Source of the DNA: Rotaria socialis
Lineage: Eukaryota
Direction: 5' to 3'
DNA length: 64,000 nt
Assembly (NCBI GenBank): GCA_905331295.1
Contig: CAJNYD010000555.1
Coordinates: forward strand, 1 to 64,000
Below are positions 12,363-61,067 of this stretch, piece after piece. The translations under genes and the position numbers were made by a program. The notes below the pieces were generated by a model, which searched no databases, was not told where the DNA came from, and saw only the letters and a list, made by a program, of their open reading frames with translations. Each line of letters begins with the position of its first letter. Position 1 is the stretch's first letter.

Positions 12363-14755
12363 ATGAATCAAACCAATGATTTTTCATCAAATTCAAACAG
12401 GTAAACGTATCGAAATATTTGTCATGAAACTTGCCATTTAATAGCGCAGTATTTATTGGCTCATCAATCATCAGTGAAATATGTTACACTTTATTACTCA
12501 TCTGCAATCATATTTCGCTACAGAAAATTTGCTTTTTTGGTAAATGTCGTGTTGTCATTTTCTTCATTTCTTCCTCTTATCAGTCACTCGTTATCGAAGA
12601 AGAGAATAATAAAAATACGCATTTATTTTGCGTATTTTGTTCTTTTTTCAACAGTTGGAGAAAGCAAACGAAGCATATTTTATCATCCCACGCCATTCTT
12701 AGACGGTATTTATCGTAACGAAATCGCATACTTCAAGTAAGTAAGATATGAAATGTTTCCTCTGTTTATCAACATGAATGTAGAAGAAGTGTCTAAAAGA
12801 GCTTCTATGCATCAGCGACGGAATCATTTTTATCATGTACCTGTTCCAATGACAAAAACATTCATTGAAGATGTGACATGAGACAAACTATCATAAATTG
12901 TAACATAGATATACTGAGAACATGGAAGATCATCTGAAGTCTTGCAAATGATTTTTCGTGTTCTCCCATAAGCTACCTGTGTTCGCACAGATGATATAGT
13001 TTCGATTTCACACAGAATTTAATCGAATTTAAATTTATGTAATAGAACACTAAAATATTGCTTGGAATAGAATCTTTGTAGGCGGAGCAGTTATATTTTT
13101 TGCTGAAAATTTCTCTTTTTCACCATTAGCAAACTTTTACTGAAAACGTTTACATTATATGCTTGCTTTTTCTAATACTTGCTACCAAGACTGAATCAAT
13201 CAATGTGAAAATAAGTGCAATTTTTACATGTTTCTAGTCACAAGTGCCGAAGAAGATCATTTTGGCACGATAAAAAAGAAATTCAACATGGCAAATTTAT
13301 ATCAAAATATAGTAATTCAAAATAACTTCTTAAATTTCATTAATCAGTACTTTTGATAGGCAGGCAGTTTGGAAAAGCCAGTATCAAAACAGACTGTTGT
13401 AAGCGCTGTATGGCCTCCTATTGCAGCACAACAACGACAAACTTCGCCTGTTCATGATCGATTGAACACTCCTGTATCGCAGTTGCATGCGGTAACAACA
13501 CATCATACTCCATACGACAATATTTACAACAAAAATGTTATCAATGACAAAACACAAATAGCGGTAAGAAGTTCTAAAAATAGATATCTCGTCTTTTAGA
13601 AACTGTTTGATGTTTATTGAATCACAATATACTTTCAAGAGTTATCAGTGAAATTCTTTGACTGAAAGTCATAATTTGTAAAGAATAGCAATGCTTTAGT
13701 TTTAGAGTTGAGACATGAACCACGAGTTTGCATGTTAGATAAATCATATGTAAAAAAATGATTGCCAGTCTGATTATGTGCAACTTGTTTCTAAAAAATT
13801 CTATACAATTTATTTGCAGCCAAATGCTGATCTATCTGTGACGATTTGTTATAAATGCAAAAGTAGTATCGATAAAAATAGTCAACCGAAGCTCACATTT
13901 AACAATCGTTTTTATCATCAACAATGTTTCAAGTGTGGTAGTTGCCGAAAAAATTTGAGCGACTCCGAGAACAGCAAATTTTCAATCGACGATGATGGTG
14001 AACCTTTATGCGCATATTGCGGATTAATAACTGCAAAAGTTTGTACTGTCTGCGGAACCCGTATTGTCAATGGAGGAACCATCAATTTCGATAGGAAAAG
14101 TTATCACACCGATTGTTTTCGTTGTAGCCAATGCCATCGACCAGTAGCAGGTGAACAAAAAACGCTAACACACAATTCGAAACCTTGTTGTATTACATGC
14201 TTTAAAGATAATTTCGCACCACGTTGTTCAAAGTGTACCCAACCGATTGTTCTTGAGCCAGCGGTCACTTGCGATGGGAAGAAGTATCATTCAGATTGTT
14301 TTTCTTGTGGGCAATGCCACAAACCGGTAACCGATTCTGAATATTACACACATCTTGGAGAACCTTGTTGCGCAAAATGTTTCACTGAACGTATTGCTTT
14401 TCGATGCGCAGAATGTTTTCGAATAATTTCTGATGGAAAATCGATTACTTGTGATGGCAAACACTACCATTCTGAATGTTTACATTGTGGCCAATGCAAA
14501 AAGCCTCTGGCGACTGAAAAAGATTTATTCAAGCACAATGAAAAGCCGTGTTGTAGTCGATGCCACGAGGAACATTTTGCACCGCGATGTTCAAAATGTT
14601 CAAGACCCATTAAAGATATCAACTATTCGACGTACGAGAACCAAAGTTTTCATAGTGATTGTTTCACCTGTTGGAAGTGCCACCGTGTAATTCATAGCTC
14701 AGAGAAGTTTTGTACCGATCAAGCTGGATTTTTATGTTTAACCTGTGCCAAATGA
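12363..14755 (+). CDS. Five-LIM-domain zinc-finger protein; 5' exons tentative
   Basis: Exon 13820-14755 encodes five tandem CxxC...HxxCFxCxxC...CxxC LIM domains. The upstream exon ending 13563 (gtaaga donor) joins in phase 0. A candidate first coding exon starts at ATG 12363 (gtaaac donor); the intermediate splicing is uncertain. Confidence 0.8.
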
Positions 14756-18733: not shown

Positions 18734-20105
18734 TTACAAAAGAGTAACCACTGCAGTTATCACAGAGCCAATTGAATCTGATTTTAACCAGAAACTCACA
18801 ACATACACTTGTCCAGCCGTAGCCGTAAACTGTTGGCTAAGTTGATCGGCACATCCATTACTTCCATCAGTAGCACAATAATTGCCACTACGACATGAAG
18901 AACTATATATTCCCGCTCGGAAACCTCCACAATTTCCATTTGGTCCTGTTCGTACCCAAGGTGAAAGAGTACAAGTTTCGAAACCTATATTTGATAGCAT
19001 TTGTGTGCCTCCTTGATAGATAGAGGTATCATCAAGATACCACTGACCTGGATCATTGCGCAGTTCAAATGTGAAATTAACTGGGCCTGTAGTAGGTGGT
19101 GTCCATTCATATGCATAGCAGCCGTACGTAGTCTTATTGGAAGTTGGGATAGTCAAAAGAGTACTTGCAGAACCAACATAACTAGGGGAGCATGGAGGCA
19201 GTGGTGTTGTTGCTGTTAATGAAGATAAACTTAATGATAGAAGATGAATAGACAAAAATTGATCTCACGAGGTAAGTTCAGATTTCCGAAAAAGTAAATT
19301 TCCGAAAATAACAAATTTCTGTCACACTATTAAAAGACACAAGAGTGCCAACAGAAATTTCCTTCAAACTTCCGTAATTGCCATTACGTACAAAAGAAAG
19401 TTATCAGAAAATACCATAATTTCAAATACCACCCAACAAAATATCCTGGGAATTTCTGAAATCCGCTTCACATAAAGACAGAAATTTTCCGTTAATTTCG
19501 GAAATAACTAATCACATGCCAGCAAATTAGAACCAAAACAAACACTAAATTCTCGACTGCTTTCCGTCATTATCTGGAAATTACGGTAATTTCTATACGA
19601 TATTAATATAGAAATTATGGAAACTTCCGTAATTTCCGAAATTTCCAGTAAAAGACTTTATTTTGGTTTTGGCTTATGGTGAATAATATTGGAGTAATTA
19701 CGAAAGTTTCTGATATTTTCTAAAACTTGACTTTTTCATCCCTGTAGTTTCCGAAATATTCATATTTAACTAGGAAATTTCCTTTTTTGGAAATCTGTCC
19801 AGTGCTGATTCACGATACATTTATAAATATTATCAGGACATACCACTGGTTGATGAAGTTGATGAAGTTGTTGTTATTGTTGTCGATACTGAAAGATTTA
19901 TAAAAGATTTTTCTTTATACGCTCAACTTTAACTCCTTGGAATAACAACAAAGATGTTTCATATAGATTATAGAATACCTGTAGTATTTGGAGATGATGT
20001 TAGCCAAAGTGTAATTATGATAGCTAATACTATACCGCCAAATAATGAACCAACGATGAAATATTTTATACATGTCGATTTGGCTGTACAAATATTGTTA
20101 ACCAA
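18734..20105 (-). CDS. Stalked CBM-like type II membrane protein, copy B (5' end unresolved)
   Basis: TM exon ~19978-20105 (YFIVGSLFGGIVLAIIITLWL), a 45-nt Ser/Thr exon at 19844-19888, and an intact head exon 18734-19212 (FELRNDPGQWYLDD...NIGFETCTLSPW...LSQQF...VSFWL). Confidence 0.7.
19276..19807. mobile_element. MITE-like element in an intron of copy B
   Basis: Imperfect terminal inverted repeats (ttcagatttccgaaaaag / ccttttttggaaatctgtcc) and many internal tttccgaaa/tttccgtaa motifs. Related element at 20503-20765. Confidence 0.55.
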
Positions 20106-27056: not shown

Positions 27057-27740
27057 AATCCTTGTTTCTGTTATCACATGAAAAAAGAAAAAAAACATCT
27101 TACAATCGCTTGAAATGTCGTAAAACTAGAGATTCTATCCGTTCTCGATTGTAAAGGGTATACATATATTATTGACAAAACCAAACGCAGATTAGAATTT
27201 GCTGCCTCTGTATTCATGATATCTAAGCGATTGTTGATTTACCCACTTAGAAAAGCTATCGAACACAAAACATTACTTTTTTCTTTATGCAATATGTTGA
27301 TTCTGTCTTTTAGAGCCTGTGGAGTATTCCATTTCAAACCGAAATAATACACCTCGAGTTTTCAGAACCACGGGGATCTACGGGATTCAAACAAAATGCA
27401 ACACCCCTGTCATCCAAGAAATCATAGTGGCTTTTCTCCCATAAGAAACTACGTACATTCTCTGCTGTTCCCAAGAAGGCACATCTTAACTACTCAACCA
27501 ACTATTTGAACTGAATTCTGAATTCAAATATGTAATATGTCCCATTATGGATCTGTTTTGTTTTCGAATGACGTAACCTAACTTTAATTCATTAAAATTC
27601 AGGTGTGAAGTGAATTATTCTAAAAATCCCGTAGTTCCTCATTTCTATCAGAAATGGTGGTGCTCTTTTTTTCTTTCGAATTTAGATTGAAATCATATAC
27701 ACCGTTGTATATTTTTTAATCGGTTTCATTTCATATAATT

Positions 27741-30700
27741 ATGTCAAATCCAACATTACTTGACCTACCACTCGAGCTATTTCATGGTATTTTTGAACAT
27801 CTTGACACAGAAACCATAGCTATATCTGTTCGATGCGTGTGCAAAAAACTCTTCAATATCGCTAATAATTATGACAAATTTAAGCTTAGTCTTGCACGGA
27901 TATATGGATCCGATTTGGTATCTATTTCTCGGATTGTTGAACCCGTGAATTTCGTTTCGTTGGCGATATATGTATACAGCGACTATCATCAGTACGGCAA
28001 AATCAATCTGTTCTTGTCTCTCTTTAAATTGAATTCATTTACTCAACTGCGATCGTTATATTTTTATTCTACTAGTGGCGACACAGTGGAACTATTTCTG
28101 CAACAGGTGCCGTTAGGAAACTTAGGTTTACTTTCAATTATTAATACAAGAGACGGCATACTTGGGAGGGCGATCAAACAAACGTTGCAATCCGTCGTTC
28201 AGTTCAATATTCCAAAGCTCCAAATATACGAACCTAAGTGTCTTGAAAGAATAAATTGGCCAGCTCAATGTCCATTAGAATATCTAATGCTGGCTGATTG
28301 CTCTTTTAGTCAATACCGCAGTGTTCTCTCTGAATTATCTAATTTAAGAATGCTGATTGTCGACAACATCAAGATGACTGATAAAGATCTAAAAACTCAG
28401 GAAGAATTTTCCATTTCACAAAATGCCGCCAAAACACAAGGTAAGCCTATGAATTAAATTAGTAACGTACACAGTCGTTGAACTTCAGTAGAAAAAATAT
28501 GTACGTTTTTACTTGTTTCTCTTACTCGTTGAGAATCATGTTTATGAACTGAAATTTTCACTAATAGATTGTCAACATTTAACATCGTTGTCGATTGTTA
28601 AATTTGACGGAACGATGGAAGATATCGAATTGATTCTCTCATTAACACCATCGCTGACTCGTCTTAGATTAATATCATGTCGAAAGAAATTCGATTCGAC
28701 ATTTGATGGCTCGACCTGGGAACGAACCATCGGAAGCAAGCTTCCTCTATTGAAAAACTTCGAACTCTTCCTCAGTCATGAATTCTGGCGAGACGTAAAG
28801 TTTCCTCTTCTCTGCGAAATAATTGCACCATTCCAAAGTACATTCTGGCTCAATCAAAAGCACTGTAATTTCAGTGCAGATTATGACTTGTGGAATCCGA
28901 TAATACGGCTCTATACGACTCCTATCTGCGCAACGAATGATCAACATTATTATTCTAGCGGGTATTTTAAATGTGTCTTATCGTCAAAAGAAAGTAGATA
29001 TTCAATTACTCAGAACCAAGGATGCAGTGTTCATTTCTCCGATTACTCAAAGGTATATTGAAATAAGTCCATATGTATTGCAATTATTTTAGCTATATTC
29101 AAACTAAAAGTCATAATTGAAAACATGAATTGTATACTGCAAGAGTTAAGCAAAACGATCATTCACTATGATATGTTATTTTCATTTGCTATGCTGTCTT
29201 TATATCATTTTTCCTCACACAGACTTGCAACACGCTCGAGTTGTCGTACAAATATATCGGAAACAATGGAATTTATCATTTGTCTCAGGCCCTACGCACG
29301 GACAAAGTGAATAATATTTTATAATGATAAATCCATAAATATCTAGACTGCTCTTGTACAGACAATCACCACACTCAGTATTAAAGAAATTAAAGTTGGA
29401 TCAAACGAAATGAAACATCTATATAGTGCATTAGAAAAAAATACAGTAAACACTTTTGTCGTATAAGCTAGCCTTGTATTTTTTTAATGTGATTGTTTTA
29501 ATAGACCATCGAAGATTTAGCTCTCAGAGACATTAAATTGGACAATAATGGACTCAAAAGCTTAGCTCATGCGCTGTCTGTTAACAAGGTGATCTATTTA
29601 TTCAATTGCATATTATTTTTTAAGATTTATTCTCACTTCATCACAGACTATTATAAAATTAAACATTTCAAGCAATCGATTCGGCGACGATGGAATGAAA
29701 CATTTAGCGGAAGCATTACATAATAATACAGTCACATACAAAATTTAAAAAATCTCTTTTATTCGTAATCGTTTTCTTTTACAGACTATGACAATGTTAA
29801 ATATCTCCTATAACAATGTGGGAGACGACGGAGCGCGAGATTTGGCTAACGCGTTGTATAATAATAAAGTCGGTTGTTTTGAAACCAATTACACATATAA
29901 TGCAGTTTGATGTTCAATATAGACGCTTACAAATCTCAATCTTTCGGGAAATGACATAACAAATATCGGGGTTGAACATCTATTCGTTGCACTACAAGAT
30001 AATTCAGTAATCTAACCTGTAATATAATTCAATCTCTTAAAAAGATTCCTTTCTCTTGAAGACACTCAAAGTTCTAGAACTTAGATCGTGTAAAACCGGA
30101 CATAAAGGTGCTATGCATCTGGCTTGTCTTCTACGTACAAATCAGGTGAATTAAGTACTATCTCTCTCGTTCTTCTTGTTATGTATCTTGATTTACACAG
30201 ACGTTGACACACTTGGATTTGAAATATTGTAACATTGAAAACCAAGGAGTAAAGGAATTGACGGACGCATTACGAACAAATAAAGTAATCTTGCATTCAT
30301 TGTATTGAGTTACCCTAAATATCGTTATTGTTCTGTACGTAGTCACTTACAACGCTCTTTCTTTCTCATAACAAAATTGATGCTGAAGGTGTGGAATATT
30401 TGATTGAAGCATTAGAAGACAATAAAGTGAACTAATTTCTGTTGTTAAAACTCTAATACAGATGTTATTTGTTTGCAGACACTTTTACAAATTCGTGATA
30501 TTTCTGCCAGCAACGATAATCAAAATTTGGTTAGTGTTAATGTGGCAATTCAAATGCGTAACAACAAAGTAATTGTAAATTTACTTTATTCAAAATTAGG
30601 GGGCAAACGACTTGAAAAAAACATAAATATCTATGCGACAAATAAAGGACCGTCCTATTTTATCGCATTTCAGTTCTCTAGTAGCATTCGGCGACCAGTA

Positions 30701-33700
30701 TTTGCCATTTTCATATTAAATTTATTTTCTTAGGAACTGAATACAGCATCGTTTTGCTTAAAGAACATAACAAGCAAAAGCAGAGAGTTTCTGATCAATA
30801 CATTTCAAAATCATGAAGTAAAAATAATATTATTCAATGACTTTTGTGATACATATTTTGATTGTTCTATTTAGACATTGACTAGACTGGATCTCGCACA
30901 GGATAACGCTGATGATGAAGCAGTAAAATATCTAGCCGATGCATTAAAAAATAATACAGTGATAATTCTATTATTTGCTCGAGTTTCTCATACTAATTTT
31001 GACTGTTTTATATAGAGAATCACTGTGCTAAATCTTGCGTCTAATACCTTAAAACACGAAGGAGCGAAATATTTAGCCGATCTATGCAAGAATAATACAG
31101 TGACGATTACATAATGTTGCTCGAATATTTCATACTGATGTTGATTATTTCATATAGACACTCACTGCGCTATATCTGCAGAAGAATTCTTTAGGTGATG
31201 AAGGAGTAAAATATCTAGCCGATGCTTTAAATAATAATACAGTAAGAATTACATTATCTACTCGTATGCTTCATGCTGGTGTTGACTATTTCATATAGAC
31301 ACTCACTGAACTGAATCTTGAGCAAAATTCTATCAAACACGAAGGAACAAAATATCTAGCCGATGCACTAAAGAACAATAAAGTGAACATTATTATTATT
31401 ATTTACTTCAATGTCTCATAGTGTTGTGGTTTATTTATAGGCCCTCACTGCGCTATATCTAGCGAATAATTCTTTAGGAGATGAAGGAACAAAATTTCTA
31501 GCCGATGCTTTACAAAATCATCCTGTGAGTGCGACCTTATTCGTATAAATACTGAATCGATATTATTATTTTCATCTAGAAACTCGAAATAGTTGATCTA
31601 GGAAATAATAAAATCACATTCATTGGAGCAGACTGTATGTTTATAGCATTGCAGAATAACACTGTGAATTAATTTTTATGGTTAACTAACTTATTATGAC
31701 GCTATAATTTATTACACACAGACACTTACAACACTTATTTTAAAAAATAACTCAGGCATAGATTGTGAAGCTATTTCTCATGCGATCAGTCTGAAGAATA
31801 ACCAGGTTATTATCGATATATTTTACTCTTTATTTTCGTTGAATTGATTTTTTTCGCTATAGACACTATCTGAATTCAAATTTTCTTGGGAAAAGGCAGG
31901 AGGCCCAGGTGCAAAATATATAAGTGATATGATCAAAAATAACACGGTAATCCTACGATTCTTTGTCGAATTATATGATGCTATTGTGTATTTATTCGAA
32001 TTAGGTCATAAAAACATTGAAAATTTCGTACGATCAGGTCGAACTTGGTGTAGTACAATACTTCTTAGACGCACTGAAGTGTAACAAAGTGAAATCATAC
32101 TATTCTAATCACTATTCATATGCTTCTTTATTCTTTTTGTCTGCCCCTTACAGACAGTTACATCTTTTGATATGTCGTTTCAACCCATGCAAGACAACGA
32201 TTGGACATGTTTTGCTGATTTCTTAAGAACAAATGAGGTAAGATTTCGATTCAGCACAGTTCTTATCTCTTCCATTCTTTTCTTCAAAAACAAAAAAGAC
32301 ACTCACGTCATTAACACTTGCCGTTCACGCTTTAAAGGAAAGAGAAGCTCAATATTTAGCTGATGCACTATCACAAAATAAAGTAACAGTGAAATGTTTT
32401 CATTTCTCATTAAAAGTTGTATTTCATTACGCAGGCACTCACTACGTTAAATCCCTTGGGGGAGGGTACTAGAACTACATTAAAAAAATATTTTGGATGC
32501 ATGTTTAAAAACAATTTGGTAAGTCATTCTTCTCAGTTCTTGAACTTCAATAGAATGTAACAAAAGTCATAGACTACATTCAAAACTACTAGCATCCATG
32601 ATGGTAAATAAGTATTCTTTTATTTTTTTTGGTATAGACACTAACTCAAATTATTTTACAGCACCGTTCGATTGACGCTAATGATGCCAAGAATCTCGTA
32701 GACGGACTAACAAATAACAAAGTGATCAATTTCCTTTTGGACTATAATAACTTCAAAACGATGTTCATTTTATGTACTGTTAGATTGTCACTGAACTACG
32801 ATTAAATAACAATGATTTAGGATCAGCAGGGGCGAAACATTTGGCTGATCTATTAAAGAATAATCAAGTACTAGGATTTTATCTAAAATGCTGCGTGAAT
32901 TTACACTTTGCGCATAGACACTGATCTGCTTGGATCTTTCAACAAACTATATCAAAGACGAAGGAGCAGTACATTTGGCTGATGCATTACAATACAACAA
33001 AGTATAGATCAATTTTCTCACTTTCCTTCACTCATCATATCGCTTTTCAACAGGTATTGAAAGAGATGAATCTTTCAGAAAACCGTATCAAAGATCATGG
33101 ATTAAAGTCTCTGGCTAATTCATTGAAAATAAACACGGACACAGTAAATAATCTATCATTATTTTGAGAGTACAGTGTCTGATATTCTATTTCTGCTAAA
33201 CAGTTTTTAGCTGAAGGAAGAGAGGAAAACGAAGCTCTGCAGTGCGCAAAGTCTCCTTTCCTCTCGTGTAATTATTTTAATGTTTTTGCGTAGGGTGTAA
33301 CAACGCTCAAACTGGGAAGAAACCTTTTTGGAGACGAAGGAGTACAAGCTATGGCAGATATGCTGAAAACCAACAATGTACTGTCTTGTACGCGTTCATT
33401 CTATGTATATTTTGAGATTCTCATGTAGACACTAATCTCGTTGGATTTCCACAAGAATAATGTTGGAAATGAAGGAATAATCGCCGTGGCTCATGCATTA
33501 AAAATCAATCAAGTCTGCATTAATACATATTTTACTAATATAAAAAGTTATATTATTCTACATAGAAACTTGTCGAACTTGATTTAGATTGTCTCAATTT
33601 CCATGAACGAGCTTCGCAGCAGCTTTTTGATGCCTTAGCACTGAACAAAGTAATTATATCCGATGAAACTATTTAAATTATGTTGCACCCTCGCTTATAT

Positions 33701-33816
33701 AGACACTTAAACTATTAAGAGCGCATAGGCCTGATCCTGCGTTTGACATGTATCCTGAAACGAAAGATTTGCAGCTGATAAATTGTTCCAATCGGGATAT
33801 TAGAGTCCAATATTAA
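27741..33816 (+). CDS. F-box protein with 30 RNI/NLRC3-type 28-residue LRR exons
   Basis: N-terminal F-box TLLDLPLELFHGIFEHLD...VRCVCKKL. Large exons 27741-28440 and 28568-29052 are followed by 30 phase-0 exons from 29223 to 33649, each one repeat of the type TLTxLxLxxNxIGDEGxKYLADALxNNx. Terminal exon 33703-33816 ends in TAA. I found no in-frame stops. Confidence 0.9.
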
Positions 33817-34691: not shown

Positions 34692-36060
34692 TTACGACAG
34701 AGTAATATTTGCAGACACGACAGAACCTGTTGAGCCTGATTTCAACCAACAACTCACGATATAGATTTCTCCAGATGTAGCCATAAATTGTTGACTAAAC
34801 TGATCGGCACATCCATTACTTCCATCATAAGCAGAATAATTTTCACTATGATACAAAAAATTACACACTTCAGATGGTGCTCCTCCGCAAGCTCCATTCG
34901 ATGTTGTTCGAATCCAATGCGAAAGGTTACTTGTCTCAAAATCAGTATTAGTTAGCATTTGCACAGCTCCAGCATATACTAAGACATCATCAAGATACGA
35001 GTAGTCTGGATCATGAAGCAAATCAAAGGCAAAAGAAGCCAAACCCGTAGTAGGTGATGTCTATTCGTATGCAAAACATCTGTTTGCAATTGTACTGCTA
35101 GATGCTGCTATATAAAGACTACTTGCAGAAACAGCAGAACTAGGAACGCATGGTGGAGCTGGTGTTGTAATTGTGGAAGTAGTTGTGGTTGATGTTGATG
35201 TTGCTGTTGTTGAAGTTCTTGTTGTTACTGTTGATGTTAGTTTATTTGTGAGAAGAAAAACGACGAGAGCAGTAATACCTATCAGAAGTAATAAAATACC
35301 AATAAATGTTGAAATACAACAACATATGAAACATTCTGGATAGATTTTACCAATATAATGACGAGTTATTTTGTAGATATTATTTTTTTTCATTATGTTG
35401 CACTATTTTCTTTAATTTGTTTCCAGTAACGTCCACTGAATATCGGAGAATTCTTTCTTTTGACTCTTGTTCTTGATAATCTCCTCTTCATTTTACTCTT
35501 GATAAATTACTTGAAGCGCCATCATAGTTCATTACACCTGTTAACATTTTTTTGGATGATGATGTCTACGGCGGTAATGAAATAATGAGAGAAATGAATA
35601 AAAAACCAAGAAAAATAATTACTTTCGAAGTCACATTAGATTTATTGTCAGTCGATCTCCTTGTTTTAGTACGAGTAATATCTATACTATTTAATGATGA
35701 AGTTTCACGCATTTTGGTGACTACTGGATGCATAGAAGTTGATGAGAACGTTTTTGATTTATATTGACCTGATGGACCATTCGCTTCTTCTAAGTTTAGA
35801 TAATTAGGCATCGTCTAAAAAAATAGCTGAAAGGAAATTTTTGCAGTCAGATGCAAAAAACAGACTTTCGCTTTGAGCATTAAAAAATCTCGAGAAAACA
35901 AATTTTTAAAGGAACACAACTTTATATAAGGTCATGTATGTTTACCTGTTTTTCTTCGTCACTTCTATCTTCGTTGTAGTGTGCTGAGTGAATAATATCA
36001 TTTCTATTGAGTGAATGTCGACTGTCAGGAGCTACTTTGATTATGGGCACGTTGAAGTAA
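34692..36060 (-). pseudogene. Stalked CBM-like family, copy D (pseudogene)
   Basis: TM (CCCISTFIGILLLLIGITALVVFLL), Thr stalk and head lie in one exon. TAG at 35061-35063 replaces a conserved Trp, there is a further stop after SSNLSRVK, and conserved Cys/Trp residues are lost. Upstream exons are homologous to copies F and G. Confidence 0.8.
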
Positions 36061-41506: not shown

Positions 41507-43300
41507 TTAGGAGAGAGTAACCGTCGCAGTTGTGACAGGTGCTAATGTGCCTGCTCTCAGCCAAAAGCTTACAACATAGACTTCTCCTGCTGTAGCGGTA
41601 AATTGTTGACTGATTTGATCAGCACATCCAAGACTTCCATCATACATACAATAAGTTCCACTGTGACACGAAGAATTAGTTATACTGCCTGGTGTTCCCG
41701 TGCAAGCTCCATGCGGTGTTGTTCGTACCCAAGGTGAAAGAGAGCCAGTTTCGAAACCTATATTAGTTAACATTTGAATAGCTCCATCATAGATTGAGGT
41801 ATCATCAAGTACCCATTGGGAGGGATCATTACGAAGTTCAAAGGTTAAATTAACTGGACCTGTAGTAGGTGACGTCCATGTATATGCGTAGCAGTTGTAC
41901 GTAATTACAGTAGGAGATGAGATCGCCAAAAGAGTACTCGCAGAACCGACAGAAGTAGGAGCACAAGGAGCAGCAGGCGTTGTTGCTGTTAATAACGATA
42001 AACTTAATGAAAGAAAATGAATGGGCAAGCATTGGGCTCACTTGTTGTACTCGTACTAGCTAGAATAATTAAAGAAAAACATTCAAATGAAGAGAAATAA
42101 TGATTCTTTTTATTTGAAACTTGACTTGGTAAGTACTTACAGGTAGTTGATGTTGAAGCTAATGAAAAAGAGAAACGCGAAAATGATTTCTAATAAAAGA
42201 TAATGGATGAAAGTTGTTACTTGCTGATGTCGTACTTGTCGTTGATGTAGCTTAAAAGAAAAATGTAAATAAATCATTTGTTATTTATCTTTTTGAAAGC
42301 ATCCTAAACTAGAAATAATTTGCTTTCATTTCAAACTAATTCTTAAACATCCCCGTCGATATGACAGCGGATGCTAGGGGACTAGGCCTTCTCATTTGTT
42401 CGTGAAATAGTATTAATCAGTACGAATCCTTTCTAAAAAATGATGGCATATAGAGACCTAGTTGCTCTCAATCATGAGCGTTTATGCTAAAATTGAAAAG
42501 TAATGCAATATAAGTTTCGTAAATTCATATTTAGTTCGTATGAAAATATTCATACTGTGTGCTATATACTCAAACCTTGAAATTTCAAAAATATTGAATA
42601 CTGTTTCCTTCGTAATTTGATAGAACTTTTATGGTGATTAATCACATTTGTCACTTGCATGATGTCGTTTGAATACTTGCTTTTACTTGAATAGGAATAT
42701 TAAAAAAATCAGTAGTGAATGCAGTCCTGGCGGTCGAGACTTTCATCCTATGGAGTGCAGGTAGAAGTAATAGTGTGGGGACAAATCTAAGTAGGTCTGA
42801 GCAATAGTTGTAGTGAAAAAATAAAAATACTAGTATTGAAGAAGTACGTTATAAGTGAGGAATATGAATTCTGCAATATTTTTCTCTAAATAGGTGTAAA
42901 CTATAGAGAAGCTAGAATCACCAGGATCGGGGGATCGAAGAAATATGGGCTTCGATAACTCTACGCTTGAATGACGGGAAAATATAGAAATCCACATTAT
43001 ATTCATGAGACATTCTGAAATATCATTGCGACCTACTGTTTATTGATGAAGTTTTTGTAATTTTATGGATACTGGATGATTTATAAAAAAAAGACAATCT
43101 CTTAACAACCGAGTTCTATTTATCATTATAAGTTTATTGGTGATATGAAGAAGTTAAATACAAATTATAGAATACCTGTAAATGATGTTAACCAAAGCAT
43201 GATTACGACGGTTAATATTATACCACCAAATAGTGAACCAATAAGAAAACATAGAATACATATGCATTTTGGTGTATAAATACTGGAAACATGTTCATAT
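41507..43300 (-). CDS. Stalked CBM-like type II membrane protein, copy E (5' end unresolved)
   Basis: TM exon 43176-43300 (ILCFLIGSLFGGIILTVVIMLWL), micro-exons 42221-42250, 42141-42158 and 42042-42059, and an intact head exon 41507-41985. Confidence 0.75.
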
Positions 43301-48580: not shown

Positions 48581-50099
48581 TCAAGAGAGAGTTACTGTCG
48601 CAGTTATACCAGCGCCAAGTGAATCTGTGCTTAACCAAAAACTCACGATATACACTTGTCCAGCCGCAGCCGTAAATTGTTGACTAAGTCGATCGGCGCA
48701 TGAATTACTTCCATCGCAGGCACAATAACTTCCACTTCGACAATTATAATTGCAAATTCGGGCTACGTACCCTCCACAACTTCCATATGGTCCAGTGCGT
48801 ACCCAAGGTGAAAGTGAACCAGTTTCGAAACCTATATTTGTTAGCATTTGTGTGCCTCCTTGATAGATAGAGGTATCATCAACATACCACTGACCTGGAT
48901 CATTGCGCAGCTCAAACATAAAAGTAACTGGACCTGTCGTAGGTGACGTCCATGAATATACATAGCAGCCGTATGTAGTGTCATTGGGAGACGAGATAGT
49001 CAAAAGAATACTTGCAAGACCAACAGAAGTAGGAAGACATGGGGGTAACGGTGTAGTTGTTGTTGATGCTGTCGTTGTGGTTACCGATGTTGTTGAAGTT
49101 GCTGTCGTCGAAGTTGTTGTGGTTGCTGTTGTTGTCACAATATGTGTATTTGTGAGAAGAAAAACCAAGAGAGCAGCAATACCCATCAGAAGTAATAAAA
49201 TACCAATAGATATTGAAACACAACAACATGCCGAACAGGCCGGACAGATTTTACCAATACAGCGACGATTTCTTTTATTGGTTTTGTTTTTTTCAGTATT
49301 TTTCGCTGTTGTCTTTAATCTGTCTTCAAGCACGCCCCATGCATATCGAAGACTTCTTGGTTTTGACTTTTGTTCTTGATATTCTTCCATTGATTTCATT
49401 CTCGATAAATTAGCTGAAACATTATGGTTCATTACACTACTGAAAAGTTTACTGGATGATGATGCCTATGTCAGTAGTAAAGTAAATGAGGACTCAAAAA
49501 AAATAATATGTACCGAAATCTCATTAAATTTATTTTTAGTTGTTCGAATACTGTGAGGATGAATGATATTGTGACGTTTTATTGATGAAGTTTCAGCCAT
49601 TTCAATGACGAGTGGATGCATAGAAGTTGGTGAAACTGGATTTGATTTAAATTTATTAGTAGTAGTGGATATGCCACTCATTTTGCCTGAGCGTAAATCA
49701 TCAGATAGTATCTAAATAAATAATTAAGAGATATTTATCAAATTAGAGGAAAACTATCGAGCATTGACTTCGCAGAATTATAGTAGATGTTCAATAGAAC
49801 AAGAACAATTTCTTTTAATAAAAGATTTTTATCTAGATTACATGGTTTACCTGTTTTTTTCGGATACGCTGATCATTGTTCTTATGCATGGAACGTTTTG
49901 TTTTCCTTCGGATTGATGAATTTCTACTAGCAAGAACTACTGTCACGGACCCCTTAAAAATAAAATCTCAGTAAATTAATGTGATACTTTCGAAAGAACT
50001 TGCGGTTTTTTTATATTTTTTATGAATGCTTGACTGCATATTTTCCCGACGAACAGGAACCACAGTGACTCGTATTTTCGGTTCAGTTTCGAACATCAT
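48581..50099 (-). CDS. Stalked CBM-like type II membrane protein, copy F
   Basis: A single exon 48581-49465 encodes the cytoplasmic part, Cys-rich TM (CCCVSISIGILLLLMGIAALLVFLL), Thr stalk and head. Upstream phase-0 exons at ~49514-49711 and ~49851-49952. The putative first exon (ATG ~50099) seems to carry one extra base in an A-run relative to copy G. Confidence 0.8.
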
Positions 50100-52784: not shown

Positions 52785-55700
52785 TTACGTGAGAGTTACT
52801 GTCGCAGTTATACCAGCGCCAAGTGAATCTGTGCGTAACCAAAAACTCACGATATACACTTGTCCAGCCGCAGCCGTAAATTGTTGACTAAGTCGATCGG
52901 CACATGAATTACTTCCATCGCAGGCACAATAACTTCCACTTCGACAATTATAATTGCAAATTCGGGCTACGTACCCTCCACAACTTCCATATGGTCCAGT
53001 GCGTACCCAAGGTGAAAGTGAACCAGTTTCGAAACCTATATTTGTTAGCATTTGTGTGCCTCCTTGATAGATAGAGGTATCATCAACATACCACTGACCT
53101 GGATCATTGCGCAGCTCAAACATAAAAGTAACTGGACCTGTGGTAGGTGACGTCCATGTATACGCGTAACAATTATACCCAGTAGCAGTAGGATTTGAGA
53201 TAGTCAAAAGAGTACTTGCAGAACCTACTGAGGTTGGTATACAGGGAGGTGTCGGCGTCGTTGCTATTTACATTGGTAAAACAGATTATCAAAGGCAAGC
53301 AAAGTAAAATACAAGTTACCTGTTGTGCTGGTAGAAGTTGAACCTAGAAAAATTAATAAAATTTATTTAAGCAAAACAAACAATCTCTTCTTTGAAGAAT
53401 GATAGCAAAGGATCTACTTTTTTGTAGCTATCAGAGACCATCACAGGGCACAACAAACGACTTTGCCTTGGGAGCTGTGTACTGATCCTAATTTATTTTT
53501 TTCTGATTGACAATATTTGATGTCAATTTTAACCCAATTACTCTTTGTCCAATGTATTTTGATCGAGTGATATGAACTCAAGCTGTTTGTAAATTGAAAT
53601 TAAGTAGTAATGTAATTGAGTCTTTATTTTAATACATATCTTATAAAGTATGAACGTCATATAAAGTTGTTGCTCAAGAACTTTATGAACGAAAAGAACT
53701 CTTTAACAAAAAAAAAGTAAATAAAAATTTTCTTTTCATTCAAAAGATCCAATTTTAATCGAGCCATTTAAAAAATAGGCGACTTTGAAGTAAATAACCA
53801 ACAAAAATAGAAGATTATTCTGTACTAGAAAACTGCTCACTAAAATATTTCATGAAGCTTTACAATTAAGAAATGACGATGTCATTTTGTCTTTTTAATC
53901 TATTTATAGTGACCGATATATTCAATCTTTATTTTCAGAAATAAAAAATTTTGAAGAAATTTTGTAATAAATAGAAAGAATTTGTTTATGTCTATTTTAT
54001 AAAAATTAAGATGAAATAGGACTCTCAGTAAAAAACCTTTTTTGTATTTAAATTACTTTCCTTCCAAAAAAAAAATGGTGTTTTTTTCTAGTGAAAATCC
54101 TAGTATTCAACAACACTTTCTCAATAAAAATGCTTAACTCAATAATAATAAAATTACCTCAAAAATTTTTGAATATAAATTTGAATGCTGTTATAAAACA
54201 AATATGTAAAGAATCAACACTTTCGGAGCAGCAATGTGGTATAGAATTTTTGAAAAACTTATGCATTTCTATTGCGCAGGGAAGGGCTGACTAATATTAT
54301 TATCATTTTGGTTCACACCAATAAGTGTCATTTCTCGTCACAAAGTGGAGCATGACATGTGTCTGGCGCTAAAATTGTGCTTAGCATCAACGAACAATCA
54401 AACAGTTTGATTGGAATAGTAGCATTTCAATCAATTTTTTAGGAGAAAAATACCAATTAAAATTGGATTTCTTCTCGAATCTTCGTACAAACACTGCTAT
54501 CGGACACGCGATTCTATTTAATTGCATACTAATTTTTTGATTTTGACATTCTTTCGTGAAGACATAAAATGAATATGATCACTAGTCTTGAAAAGCAAAT
54601 ACATTACTTTAATCAAGCCTTACGATCTCATATAGGCATATTCAATTTAGAGATTTCATTTCAAATTGCCCTGCTCTGTGATACTCTATGGTAGCTATCA
54701 ATCATAGCTGCGAAGCTGAGAAAAATAAAAACTATATTATCATTTTTCACTTTACTCACTTGTTGTTGTTGTTGTTGTTTGTGCTTGTATATACGAAAAA
54801 GAAAGAATTATACTGGTTTTCTCATGCGACAAAGACATTACTTACATGTAGATGATGTTGAACCTATCATAAACACAAAATAGTAAAGATTAATAGTAAA
54901 AAATTACAAATTACTTGTGGACGATGTCGTTGTAGTTGAAGTTGTCGATGTTGATGTTGTTGAAGTTGTCGACGTTGATGTCGTCGAAGTTGTTGTTGTT
55001 GCTGTTGTTGTCACAATATGTGTATTTGTGAGAAGAAAAACCAAGAGAGCAGCAATACCCATCAGAAGTAATAAAATACCAATAGATATTGAAACACAAC
55101 AACATGCCGAACAGGCCGGACAGATTTTACCAATACAGCGACGATTTCTTTTATCGGTTTTGTTTTTTTCAGTATTTTTCGCTGTTGTCTTTAATCTGTC
55201 TTCAAGCACGCCCCATGCATATCGAAGACTTCTTCGTTTTGGCTTTTGTTCTTGATATTCTTCCATTGATTTCATTCTCGATAAATTACTTGAAACATCA
55301 TGGTTCATTACACTACTGAAAAGTTTACTGGATGATAATGCCTATGTCAGTAGTAAAATCAACGAGAAATCAAGAAAACTAATTAGTACCGAAGTCACAT
55401 TGAAGTTATCTGTAGTTGTTCGAATTCTTTGAGGGTGAATAATAGTTGGAGTTCGGATTGATGAAATTTCATGCATTTCGATGATGACTGGGTGCATAAA
55501 AGTTGGTGTAACTGTATTTGATTTAAATTTATTAACAGATGTTGATAGACCACCTATTTCATCTAAGTGTAAATCATCAGACAACATCTAAATAAATAAT
55601 TAAAAAATATTTATGAAATCAGATAAAATTACTTTCGTATTTACAATGGGAAAAAGAATTTCGACACAACAATATTTTAAGATAAAAGATTTTACTTCAG

Positions 55701-58349: not shown

Positions 58350-61067
58350 ATGACTGAATTTATGTGCACTTATCTAATAATACTCTTCTGGTCAGTTTTA
58401 CTAGTGCTGGGACGCAACTCTGAAAACGTGGAAAATGTTAGTGAATTAAATTCAGCACACGTGAAAAGGGATGAAGAATCGAACTCAATGGAACCAAATA
58501 ATTATAGTAGGATCTAGTTTCTTTTTTTATTTCATTGAATTTAACTTAGGTACTCTGTAGAGAAATTTGTTGCAACGTACAAGACTAATATTAATGTTTT
58601 GTCCGATAGCATCGATTTATCGAAAATAGAGGAGGAGGTATCTGTATATATATATATATATACATACTCTTTCACTTGTAGTTCTTCATTTATTTTCCTT
58701 TATTCTTTTCATTCAACAGTTTGAATTAGCTCTAAAAGCTGAATCAGAAACTATTACCATAGAACAGATAGAAAGTGTATCAACAAGCGAACATAATCAT
58801 CAATTGTTGTAAGCAATACTTTTTGAATGACGTAAGCGATTTATGTTTATGTTTCTGTATCGCAAGAATAATACGTTCCAATACAAGCAATACGAACTTT
58901 GGAATTATTATTACATTTATTATTAAATTTCCACGTAGCCAAGTATGTCAAACTACTAAATGTATCGATACGTTCTTCAATGGCATGCAACAGCGATTTG
59001 AACGTTTCTGTAACTTGACTATCACACTTGTATACAAGGACCAAAATGGAGTATATAAAGTTCAGCTAAGACTGTGCTCAATTCAGATAACCAGTACGCA
59101 ATCGATCAATACAACATCAACAACGACGACAACTAAGACACCAACTATCACAATCACCTCTCCAACCACAACCACAACTACAACTGCGACTACAACAACA
59201 ACTGCATCAACAACAACAACAACAACAACTACATCAACAACAACAGCATCAACAACTACCGTGTCGACTAAGGAAGATTCAAGTACCTTGTGGTTTACTA
59301 TTGATTGCTAATGTGAAAAGTTATACATTCAATACCTGCAAAATATTTGAATTGGTTCATGGTAAAAAGGATTAAATTTTTACGAGATAAGCAAAGAGAA
59401 ATTATCGTGCTATCCGAGTATAACATAACTTTAGAACTGTAATAGTGTTATTTAGATTTTATATTTTCTTGAAAGGGCTAAAGATTTCGAGGAAGTTGAG
59501 TCGATTGTTGGTATTGCAAGAGTTAAACAGACAGAAGTAAATTATACAGAAAAACTTTCGCTAATTGACGTTTGTTTGAAGTCTCCAGTGTTTTTATCCC
59601 TCCTAGATTAGATACCTCATGTGAGCTTGAAAATAGATTAAATTTTTAAATATAGTAAGTATAGAAGCGTAACAGCTGCAGAATTAGCATTGATCTGACA
59701 ACTCTATTAAAGTGTGAACAGTAGCATTTCGGACTAAGCGATCTGAGAAATAATAATTATGTTTTTAAATGTATTCTAATTAACAAACTATATGTAGAAG
59801 ATTATGCTAGTTGAACTACTAATTCCTTTTTTTTGTAGTGAGTGGCATTGCTGGCAGTGGACTACCTTTTGATAATATGCAACCATCTTTGGTACTTACA
59901 CAAATAGTACCATTGTCTATTACATTTCCTCTATGTGCTATTCGTACTTTTGCATGCAACTTTGCTCCTGGTAATAGTCTTCTAGCATATGGACAACTAC
60001 TCCCGATAGCATCCAATACAGCGATATTTTCTATCATGGGTACAACTTATGGAGGTGACGGTAAAAAAACCTTTGCACTTCCGAATTTACAAGGTATTAC
60101 AATTATTGGTAGTGGTCAAGGTAGTGGCTTATCACCTTATCGCCTAGGCGAACAGACCGGAAGTCAACAAGTAACACTGACTAAAAATCAGATGCCGGCA
60201 CATGTACACTCAATCCCAAGCTCGATTGATTTCACAGGCGTGACAGGTTCATCACAATCATTCTCTTCTATTCAACCATCTTTAGCGATGAGCTATCTGA
60301 TTTGTATAAGTGGTGTTTTTCCATCCGCTGGTTCCTCCGTAGGACAACTACCATTCATCGGTCAAATCGTTCCATATACTGGAAATGTTATACCGACGGG
60401 ATGGGCACTAGCGGATGGAAGCTTATTGTCGATTGCATCAGATACAGCTCTGTTTTCAATACTTGGTACTACGTACGGAGGTGATGGAGTAACTAACTTT
60501 CGTTTACCAGACTTACAAGGCAGAGTACCTGTTGGCGTTTCTGGAAGTTTAAATACACAGATTGGTAATACTATTGGCGTCGAATCTGTTACTCTGTTAA
60601 CCAATAACTTACCTTCACATGTGCATAGTCTAGTCGGTAGCAAGTATAATGCGACTCAAACTGGTGTTACAGGAGCTGGACAGACTTTCGATAATCGGCA
60701 ACCTGGTTTGGGAATCACTTATCTGATAACAATGCAAGGAGTATTTCCATCACAAGGAGGTACTGGTCCAGAACCTATGGCACCTTATCTTGGAGAGATT
60801 GTTGCATTTGCTGGTAATTTTCAGCCAGGGGGTTACGCCTTTGCCAATGACCAACTACTATCAATTTCTCAAAATACAGCTCTCTTTGTTTTGCTGGGTA
60901 CTACTTATGGTGGCAATGGTATAACAAGTTTTGCTCTTCCTGATCTTCGCGGTCGAGTCATCCTCGGATCTGGAAGAGGTTTTAGCATTGGGCAAACCCT
61001 TGGTTCATCGCTGATAACGCTAACAGTAGATCAAATGCCATCTCATGCACATAGTCTTAGCCCATAA
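58350..61067 (+). CDS. Secreted chimeric protein: signal peptide, N-domain, Thr stalk and three phage tail-collar (MdpB-like) repeats
   Basis: Exons 58350-58506, 58561-58637, 58720-58808, 58867-59282 and 59839-61067 join in frame through GT-AG introns. N-terminus MTEFMCTYLIILFWSVLLVLG. The last exon has three copies of G(Q/S)LLxIxxNTALFSxLGTTYGGDGxxxFxLPDLxGR...VTL...MPxHxH. Confidence 0.85.

What the first reader, a model, noticed from the sequence alone, without database searches (positions are those of the whole stretch)
29223..33649. Thirty consecutive symmetric LRR exons on an F-box protein
Seen: 28 exons of 84 nt and 2 of 90 nt, all phase 0 and mostly spaced ~140 bp apart, each encoding one 28-30 aa repeat. 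Framework residues are conserved while intervening positions vary widely, and the array is almost invisible in the ORF track. Established: 84-nt LRR exons occur in NLR/RNI-type genes, and F-boxes recruit SCF ubiquitin ligase. Inference: any exon can be skipped, duplicated or swapped in frame, giving a potentially combinatorial intracellular recognition-and-degradation receptor.
Basis: partly seen in the sequence, partly recalled or inferred. Interest (0 to 1): 0.7.

Follow-up and report, generated by a model that had tools for sequence, protein, structure and literature searches.

The report
Rotifer F-box gene, thirty LRR exons
A bdelloid rotifer gene joins an F-box to 30 leucine-rich repeats, each on its own small exon; it likely works as an adaptor that tags bound proteins for destruction, and it belongs to a sizeable rotifer gene family whose predicted binding surfaces diverge after exon duplication, but nothing seen here shows the exons being mixed and matched.

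Summary
28 exons of 84 nt and 2 of 90 nt, all phase 0, sit in a 33-exon gene (27741-33816) that splices to 1276 aa without a stop. The DNA matches Rotaria socialis. The N-terminus is an FBXL-type F-box/LRR module; the array folds like ribonuclease inhibitor; no NACHT domain was found. The gene is one of at least 24 gene groups with this layout; 19 of 20 looked up are named bdelloid proteins. Exons 12-16 are recent exon-plus-intron duplicates. Among them, predicted concave-face codons evolve far faster than convex ones (omega 1.49 vs 0.09) but not significantly above 1 (p=0.34). Against a combinatorial receptor: three DNA runs carry the same 30 exons, 16 repeats are collinear and 97% identical in R. 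magnacalcarata, there are no dead or inverted exons, no whole exon is shared with another locus, and arrays are not hypervariable between alleles. Two paralogue models do carry duplicated repeats. Splicing of this gene could not be tested. One LRR per symmetric exon is known (NOD/NLRC, brown-algal ROCO, Tetrahymena); coupling it to an F-box in a bdelloid family was not found in my searches. New variant of a known kind; interest 0.38.

The parts
27741..28440 (+). Exon 1: ATG, F-box (aa 6-46) and first irregular FBXL-type LRRs; ends phase 1
   Evidence: identical to P0001/P0152
28568..29052 (+). Exon 2: rest of the N-terminal FBXL-type module (to aa 395); ends phase 0
   Evidence: same junctions in public models P0001/P0152
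29223..29306 (+). LRR exon 1 (84 nt); left out of the public models
29362..29445 (+). LRR exon 2 (84 nt)
29505..29588 (+). LRR exon 3 (84 nt)
29647..29730 (+). LRR exon 4 (84 nt)
29785..29868 (+). LRR exon 5 (84 nt)
29923..30006 (+). LRR exon 6 (84 nt)
30062..30145 (+). LRR exon 7 (84 nt); carries the one amino-acid variant seen in the DNA runs (30083, repeat position 8)
30201..30284 (+). LRR exon 8 (84 nt)
30343..30426 (+). LRR exon 9 (84 nt)
30479..30568 (+). LRR exon 10 (90 nt), irregular repeat; 29 of 30 aa kept in R. magnacalcarata; resembles a second cassette type seen in other family members
30734..30817 (+). LRR exon 11 (84 nt), irregular repeat; 28 of 28 aa kept in R. magnacalcarata
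30875..30958 (+). LRR exon 12 (84 nt), recent duplicate block
31016..31099 (+). LRR exon 13 (84 nt), recent duplicate block
31158..31241 (+). LRR exon 14 (84 nt), recent duplicate block; 82% nt identity to exon 16
31299..31382 (+). LRR exon 15 (84 nt), recent duplicate block
31441..31524 (+). LRR exon 16 (84 nt), recent duplicate block
31580..31663 (+). LRR exon 17 (84 nt)
31722..31805 (+). LRR exon 18 (84 nt)
31863..31946 (+). LRR exon 19 (84 nt)
32005..32088 (+). LRR exon 20 (84 nt)
32154..32237 (+). LRR exon 21 (84 nt)
32299..32382 (+). LRR exon 22 (84 nt); weakest, purine-rich acceptor of the gene, best candidate for skipping
32435..32518 (+). LRR exon 23 (84 nt), irregular repeat
32638..32721 (+). 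LRR exon 24 (84 nt)
32784..32867 (+). LRR exon 25 (84 nt)
32918..33001 (+). LRR exon 26 (84 nt)
33054..33143 (+). LRR exon 27 (90 nt)
33294..33377 (+). LRR exon 28 (84 nt)
33429..33512 (+). LRR exon 29 (84 nt)
33566..33649 (+). LRR exon 30 (84 nt)
33703..33816 (+). Last coding exon (37 aa cap and stop)
   Evidence: same C-terminus in P0152

Best explanation
This is an intact 33-exon bdelloid rotifer gene whose F-box likely docks it on an SCF ubiquitin ligase while its 30-repeat, ribonuclease-inhibitor-like solenoid is predicted to bind target proteins; the array grew by tandem duplication of exon-plus-intron units (shown for exons 12-16, inferred for the rest) and is likely spliced mostly as one full-length product. 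Shown: gene structure, F-box, family membership, recent duplication of units 12-16, faster change at repeat positions 4, 6, 8, 9, 11 than on the helix, and stable exon content across samples. Predicted: the two folds. Inferred: Skp1 binding; unequal recombination as the duplication route; that diversity is made slowly in the germ line, by duplication followed by divergence of the concave face and spread over many paralogues, not by splicing; that the targets are variable, possibly foreign, proteins, as proposed for nematode F-box families.
For: F-box PF00646 above cut-off. N-terminal model pLDDT 88 with best Foldseek matches FBXL17, SKP2, COI1/TIR1, FBXL2. Model of the 973-aa public product matches ribonuclease inhibitor best, E=1.2e-21, TM 0.85 over the target. 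Period-142 tandem array at 30914-31512; introns 11-15 are homologous (Z up to 14) and exons 12-16 are 63-82% identical against about 55% background. Codon model on exons 12-16: omega concave 1.49, convex 0.09, core 0.39; concave differs from convex (LRT 29.0); 12 canonical exons give 1.10 vs 0.23 (LRT 32.8). Each of 3 DNA runs has one contig over the whole gene, with 1-4 letter differences and no exon gain or loss (2 studies, all flagged as possible sources of the window). 16 repeats collinear in R. magnacalcarata, 14 differences in 452 aa against 11 in 197 for the N-terminus. 71 of 78 proteins with this N-terminus carry 3 or more repeats, in 24 groups; 157 of 159 within-group pairs collinear. 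In 10 models of one R. socialis paralogue the array is less variable than the N-terminus, 4 of 392 vs 17 of 386 columns, p=0.004.
Against: Concave omega is not significantly above 1 (p=0.34 and 0.74; bootstrap pN/pS 0.86-1.83), so relaxed constraint fits as well as positive selection. Between alleles and orthologues concave changes are not enriched: 7 of 650 vs 10 of 1040 convex, p=0.81. Two paralogue models carry near-exact duplicated repeats (P0199 one repeat, P0195 a pair), so copy number can change fast in this family, unless these are assembly errors. An A. vaga homologue has three annotated isoforms, two ending at repeat boundaries, so one constitutive product is not assured. 14 of the 30 repeats are missing in whole or part from the R. 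magnacalcarata model and could not be compared. The exon tree is mostly unresolved, 21 of 25 inner branches open.
Confidence: 0.6

Rival explanations
1. Combinatorial receptor: the symmetric exons are skipped in many combinations, or swapped between loci, so that one gene gives a repertoire of recognition-and-degradation proteins.
For: All 30 exons are frame-preserving. Several splice sites score weakly against the gene's own profile, above all the acceptors of exons 22 and 25. LRR exon skipping is reported for human NLRP3 (PMC6642158, abstract, passages and section 6 read) and brown-algal ROCO genes (PMC11378527, abstract read). Public models of one locus differ by whole repeats. Duplicated repeats in two paralogue models.
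Against: No inactive or inverted LRR exon in the 64-kb window. Listed pieces of other loci that match the array at 85% or more are under 50 nt, never a whole exon (the table is cut to the longest pieces). The best match of a window repeat in another gene is 19 of 28 aa. Fixed order across samples and species. The repeat-count differences between public models do not follow the amino-acid variants (P0162 and P0159 differ only by that repeat, both on 12,772-nt contigs), which points to gene-prediction noise. The A. vaga isoforms truncate, they do not skip.
Confidence: 0.12
2. Housekeeping or stress-response SCF adaptor for the animal's own proteins; concave-face variation is only relaxed constraint on surplus repeats, and the exon layout is an inherited trait with no present use.
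For: Omega on the concave face is not distinguishable from 1. Arrays are conserved among alleles and sister species. In the paper on the bdelloid response to a fungal pathogen the terms LRR, NLR, F-box and leucine have 0 occurrences in the main text (PMC11258130).
Against: Exposed convex-helix codons are strongly constrained (omega 0.09-0.23) while concave ones are not, the reverse of what a fixed partner on the concave face would give. At least 24 gene groups with 5-28 detected repeats suggest birth-and-death evolution. The same array type is fused to caspase and ADP-ribosyltransferase domains in Adineta models.
Confidence: 0.2
3. A decaying or unexpressed duplicate: a by-product of repeat expansion in a degenerate tetraploid genome.
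For: Repeats 10, 11 and 23 are irregular; core omega is fairly high (0.39) in exons 12-16.
Against: No stop or frameshift in 3831 coding bases and 32 canonical introns. Within the gene, the listed indels in the DNA runs fall in introns, and 4 of 6 letter changes are intronic, 1 synonymous, 1 amino-acid changing. Overall omega is below 1. Irregular repeats 10 and 11 are kept in the sister species.
Confidence: 0.08

Closest known systems
FBXL-type SCF adaptors (FBXL17, SKP2, FBXL2, plant TIR1/COI1)
   Same: N-terminal F-box followed by LRRs; these are the best fold matches of the first 233 aa.
   Different: Here a second, RI-type solenoid of 30 regular 28-aa repeats follows, one per exon; the matched PDB chains are 259-568 aa with far fewer repeats. 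Skp1 binding is not tested here.
Vertebrate NOD/NLRC genes and ribonuclease inhibitor (Hoss et al. 2019, PMC6642158; abstract, passages and section 6 read)
   Same: One 28-aa RI-type LRR per frame-preserving exon, border at a fixed place in the repeat; RI-like fold.
   Different: No NACHT or death-fold domain found; an F-box instead; no 28/29 alternation; skipping is shown for NLRP3 but not here.
Brown-algal LRR-ROCO and LRR-kinase genes (Zambounis et al. 2012, PMC3341825, passages read; Teng et al. 2024, PMC11378527, abstract read)
   Same: One LRR per symmetric exon, variable number between paralogues, fastest change on the concave face.
   Different: Those use 72-nt exons and show inactive and inverted exons, intergenic recombination, significant positive selection and alternative splicing; none of these was found or shown at this locus.
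Tetrahymena 90-bp-exon LRR genes (PMC6564038, passages read)
   Same: Lineage-specific families of tandem equal-length LRR exons with one intron phase, fused to other domains.
   Different: 90 nt and phase 2 there, 84 nt and phase 0 here; thousands of genes there; 'F-box' has 0 occurrences in that text.
Rapidly evolving Caenorhabditis F-box families (PMC8665587, passages read)
   Same: Expanded, lineage-specific F-box genes with faster-evolving substrate-binding parts, proposed to target foreign proteins.
   Different: 'Leucine' has 0 occurrences in that text, so a different substrate module; here alleles show more variation in the N-terminus than in the array.
Unnamed bdelloid 'F-box domain-containing' predicted proteins (CAF3301199.1 = P0152, CAF4551408.1 = P0001; paralogues CAF1031253.1, CAF0741950.1, UJR06748.1)
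   Same: P0152 and P0001 are automatic models of this gene; the paralogues have the same layout and repeat register.
   Different: The public model has 973 aa and leaves out LRR exons 1, 11-13 and 22-28; no function is attached.

Membership tests
FBXL (F-box plus LRR) SCF adaptors | N-terminal F-box motif | tested here: met
   PF00646 28 bits vs cut-off 20.5, aa 6-46; three-helix model, FBXL17/SKP2 best matches
FBXL (F-box plus LRR) SCF adaptors | LRR substrate-binding region after the F-box | tested here: met
FBXL (F-box plus LRR) SCF adaptors | Binds Skp1 and brings substrates to ubiquitination | not tested
NLR receptors (NOD/NLRC) | NACHT or NB-ARC nucleotide-binding domain | tested here: not met
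   No such family in Pfam scans of exon 1, exon 2, the last exon and P0152; the rest of the protein is repeats
NLR receptors (NOD/NLRC) | One 28-aa RI-type LRR per frame-preserving exon | tested here: met
   definition from PMC6642158 section 6
Exon-shuffling LRR receptors of the Ectocarpus ROCO type | One LRR per symmetric exon | tested here: met
Exon-shuffling LRR receptors of the Ectocarpus ROCO type | Inactive or inverted LRR exons in introns | tested here: not met
   DNA and protein profiles over the whole window find only array exons (29 of the 30; irregular exon 10 is missed); other hits have E 0.2 or higher
Exon-shuffling LRR receptors of the Ectocarpus ROCO type | Recent exchange of exons between loci | tested here: not met
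   No whole-exon match at 85% from another contig among listed pieces; best other-gene match 19 of 28 aa. One repeat type is shared between two other gene groups
Exon-shuffling LRR receptors of the Ectocarpus ROCO type | Variable repeat number between alleles or recent copies | tested here: inconclusive
   Fixed at this locus in 3 runs; duplicated repeats in 2 paralogue models, DNA not seen
Exon-shuffling LRR receptors of the Ectocarpus ROCO type | Positive selection on concave-face residues | tested here: inconclusive
   omega 1.49, p=0.34 against 1; no enrichment between alleles
Exon-shuffling LRR receptors of the Ectocarpus ROCO type | Alternative splicing of LRR exons | not testable with these tools
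   Needs raw or long RNA reads of this gene; only contigs were laid

The most novel reading that the evidence does not exclude
Bdelloid rotifers have their own class of intracellular immune receptors that lack the NLR switch: cassette-built RI-type LRR sensors wired directly to effectors (F-box in at least 24 gene groups, also caspase and ADP-ribosyltransferase), whose specificity is renewed by exon duplication and selection on the concave face, with repeat-number alleles segregating now. This would give an animal with little or no sex a recombination-light way to keep up with pathogens.
Probability: 0.25. Interest if true: 0.72.

Novelty: new variant of a known kind. Interest (0 to 1): 0.38.

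Why it matters
How bdelloids recognise pathogens is open: the main text of the paper on their antifungal response names no LRR, NLR or F-box gene. This family is a concrete, testable candidate, and existing infection RNA-seq for Adineta could be re-read for it. The work also shows that automatic gene models drop many of these exons (973 vs 1276 aa here), so the family's repeat counts are under-reported. The exon design itself is not new, and the most exciting reading, a splice-generated repertoire, has no support so far.

Tried and rejected
No whole genome was held, so no genome-wide census of such exons. No RNA holder listed for the gene; the one run guessed to be RNA (X10) has no contig over the gene; neither is evidence on expression. 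Only 4 of the 10 listed runs were laid, so X2, X7, X8 and X9 remain unexamined. Repeat-count differences between public models were first read as alleles or isoforms and rejected as evidence: they do not follow amino-acid variants, and such models come from automatic prediction (BRAKER is the method in PMC7943196, passages read; that these records come from it is my assumption). A first pooled count of changes by repeat position held misaligned ends and was replaced, which keeps only repeats matching at 24 or more of 28. The A. vaga isoforms first looked like a one-repeat skip; the alignment shows truncation at repeat boundaries. The same-gene versus other-gene nearest-repeat count (42 of 461) is not usable because that set still held alleles of one gene. 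Long introns 10, 23 and 27 were searched for dead exons: none. PDB sequence search with exon 1: no hit under E=0.5. No complex with Skp1 was predicted. Literature: 9 searches (listings seen) gave no paper describing this bdelloid family; most subscription papers are not held. Supplements: 0 hits in PMC11258130 (4 of 16 files not searched) and PMC7943196 (9 of 21 not searched), so gene lists there may still bear on it. Thomas 2006 on nematode and plant F-box evolution is recalled, not read. P0163 was left out of the allele count (its start is a different protein); the 12 'canonical' exons were picked by eye.
Full report
Observation. The array is real. Thirty AG/GT exons lie between 29223 and 33649: 28 of 84 nt and two of 90 nt, all phase 0. 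With two upstream exons and one last exon they give a 1276-aa product with no internal stop. The 4.5-kb array holds 30 stop-free 84-nt candidates (28 real), against 26 in the rest of the + strand; other lengths give 0-6. Each intron after an LRR exon has an in-frame stop (22 of 30) or shifts the frame (8 of 30). No ORF of 100 aa overlaps the array. Repeats 10, 11 and 23 are irregular.

Identity. The first 233 aa are 100% identical to a Rotaria socialis record and 93% to a R. magnacalcarata record. The public model of this gene (P0152, 973 aa) leaves out LRR exons 1, 11-13 and 22-28. Exon 1 carries an F-box above the Pfam cut-off. Its predicted fold (pLDDT 88) matches FBXL17, SKP2, COI1/TIR1 and FBXL2 best. 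The model of P0152 (pLDDT 78) matches ribonuclease inhibitor best; its first repeat strand covers positions 4-8, which fits my recalled assignment of positions 4, 6, 8, 9, 11 to the concave face. No NACHT or NB-ARC domain was found, so this is not an NLR.

Family. Of 284 proteins fetched, 78 entries (including my own model) match the N-terminal module; 71 of them have three or more repeats and fall into 24 groups with 5-28 detected repeats. Of 20 representatives looked up, 19 are named bdelloid proteins (Rotaria socialis, R. magnacalcarata, R. sp. Silwood2, Adineta ricciae, A. steineri, A. vaga) and one is unnamed. The nearest Atlas clusters are F-box proteins, commonest in Rotifera. Paralogues share the exon border: loose ends of DNA contigs continue with GT at the same register, and loose ends in the run guessed to be RNA run straight into the next repeat; two annotated A. 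vaga isoforms end by reading on at a repeat boundary. In Adineta models the same array type is joined to caspase or ADP-ribosyltransferase domains. Some such joins may be prediction errors, but each is seen in two records.

How the array grew. Units 12-16 form a period-142 tandem array. Their exons are 63-82% identical and introns 11-15 are homologous, Z up to 14, against about 55% background between other exons. So exon and intron were copied together. The older repeats are too diverged to order: 21 of 25 tree branches are open. Two paralogue models carry near-exact duplicates: one identical extra repeat in P0199 against P0203, and a doubled last pair in P0195. A gene predictor can drop but not double an exon, so these are recent duplications or assembly errors; I could not see their DNA.

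Selection. Among exons 12-16 a fixed-sites codon model gives omega 1.49 for concave, 0.09 for convex-helix and 0.39 for core codons. Concave differs from convex (LRT 29.0) but not from 1 (p=0.34). Twelve canonical exons give 1.10 vs 0.23 (LRT 32.8; p=0.74 against 1) (counts agree). So after duplication the predicted binding face is free or driven to change while the helix is held. At short range the picture is calm. In 130 repeats from 11 allele or orthologue pairs, concave changes are 7 of 650 and convex 10 of 1040 (p=0.81). In ten models of one paralogue the array varies less than the N-terminus, 4 of 392 vs 17 of 386 (p=0.004). Clusters are cut at 90% identity, so very different alleles would be missed.

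Shuffling and skipping. Three DNA runs from two studies, all flagged as possible sources of the window, each have one contig over the whole gene with all 30 exons; within the gene the listed differences are four intronic changes, two intronic indels, one synonymous change and one amino-acid change at repeat position 8. Sixteen repeats are collinear in R. magnacalcarata with 14 differences in 452 aa; the other 14 are wholly or partly absent from that model and cannot be judged. 157 of 159 within-group pairs are collinear, the two exceptions involving P0195. There are no dead or inverted exons in the window. No listed piece from another locus covers a whole exon at 85%, and the best protein match in another gene is 19 of 28. 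The marks of active shuffling described in Ectocarpus are therefore missing here. Splicing could not be tested; the acceptors of exons 22 and 25 are the weakest.

Mechanism. Most likely (0.6): an SCF substrate adaptor with a very long solenoid, grown by intragenic duplication, diversified on its concave face over evolutionary time and across paralogues, and spliced mostly in full. Thirty RI-type repeats are about twice the number in ribonuclease inhibitor (recalled), so the solenoid is inferred to be superhelical or broken at the irregular repeats into blocks of 9, 11 and 7. Repeat 10 resembles, in register, a second cassette type found in other F-box arrays and in the caspase fusions; scores are modest (shuffled seeds gave 8-25 hits at the same threshold), so this is a lead. 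Rivals: adaptor for host proteins with relaxed repeats (0.2), combinatorial receptor (0.12), decaying copy (0.08).

Comparison. One 28-aa LRR per frame-preserving exon is described for most NOD and NLRC genes, with skipping shown for NLRP3 (PMC6642158). Exon-cassette LRR families are described in brown algae (PMC3341825; PMC11378527) and Tetrahymena (PMC6564038). Fast-evolving F-box families are proposed as immune adaptors in nematodes (PMC8665587). The gene works like an FBXL adaptor and meets the two sequence criteria; it shares the exon design of NLRs but fails membership. The join of the two in an expanded bdelloid family was not found in nine literature searches. Earlier notes of this scan report similar arrays in other genomes, so the layout recurs.

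Verdict. Observation confirmed, interpretation partly supported. New variant of a known kind, interest 0.38. The boldest reading not excluded, a bdelloid class of cassette-built immune sensors wired directly to effectors, has probability about 0.25 and would deserve about 0.72.

Noticed in passing
window 59823-61067 (+): Intronless 414-aa ORF with three phage tail collar domains (PF07484, E=2e-66); likely a bacterial-type gene acquired horizontally.
   Followed up: no
window - strand: 18734-19264, 34692-35402, 41507-42037, 48581-49465, 52785-53267, 54904-55341: A local family of at least six copies or pieces of a gene with a transmembrane stretch, a threonine-rich linker and a cysteine-rich extracellular-looking module; no Pfam family at E 1e-5.
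   Followed up: partly
window 27500-27684 (+): A 415-nt contig of run X10 (guessed to be RNA) matches without differences and ends in a run of A at 27684, 57 nt before the F-box start, across a high-copy repeat at about 27594-27710. Possibly a short upstream transcript.
   Followed up: no
window 31192-31518, joint 31219 to 31480: One other locus shows the same 649 letters between two repeat matches in two DNA runs and in X10, which would fit an intronless LRR array in the same genome, or DNA in that run.
   Followed up: no
P0172, P0057, P0173 (A. vaga I4U23_011037): Three annotated isoforms; two end early at repeat boundaries, as by intron read-through.
   Followed up: partly
P0199 vs P0203; P0195 vs P0048/P0202/P0213: Near-exact duplicated repeats in paralogue models, candidates for repeat-number alleles.
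   Followed up: partly
P0214, P0257, P0250, P0253 (Adineta): The same 28-aa array type joined to caspase plus NHL domains or to an ADP-ribosyltransferase domain.
   Followed up: partly
window 30479-30568: Irregular repeat 10 resembles a second cassette type present in several family members and in the caspase fusions.
   Followed up: partly
window 13754-14755 (+): Intronless 333-aa ORF with five or more LIM domains.
   Followed up: no
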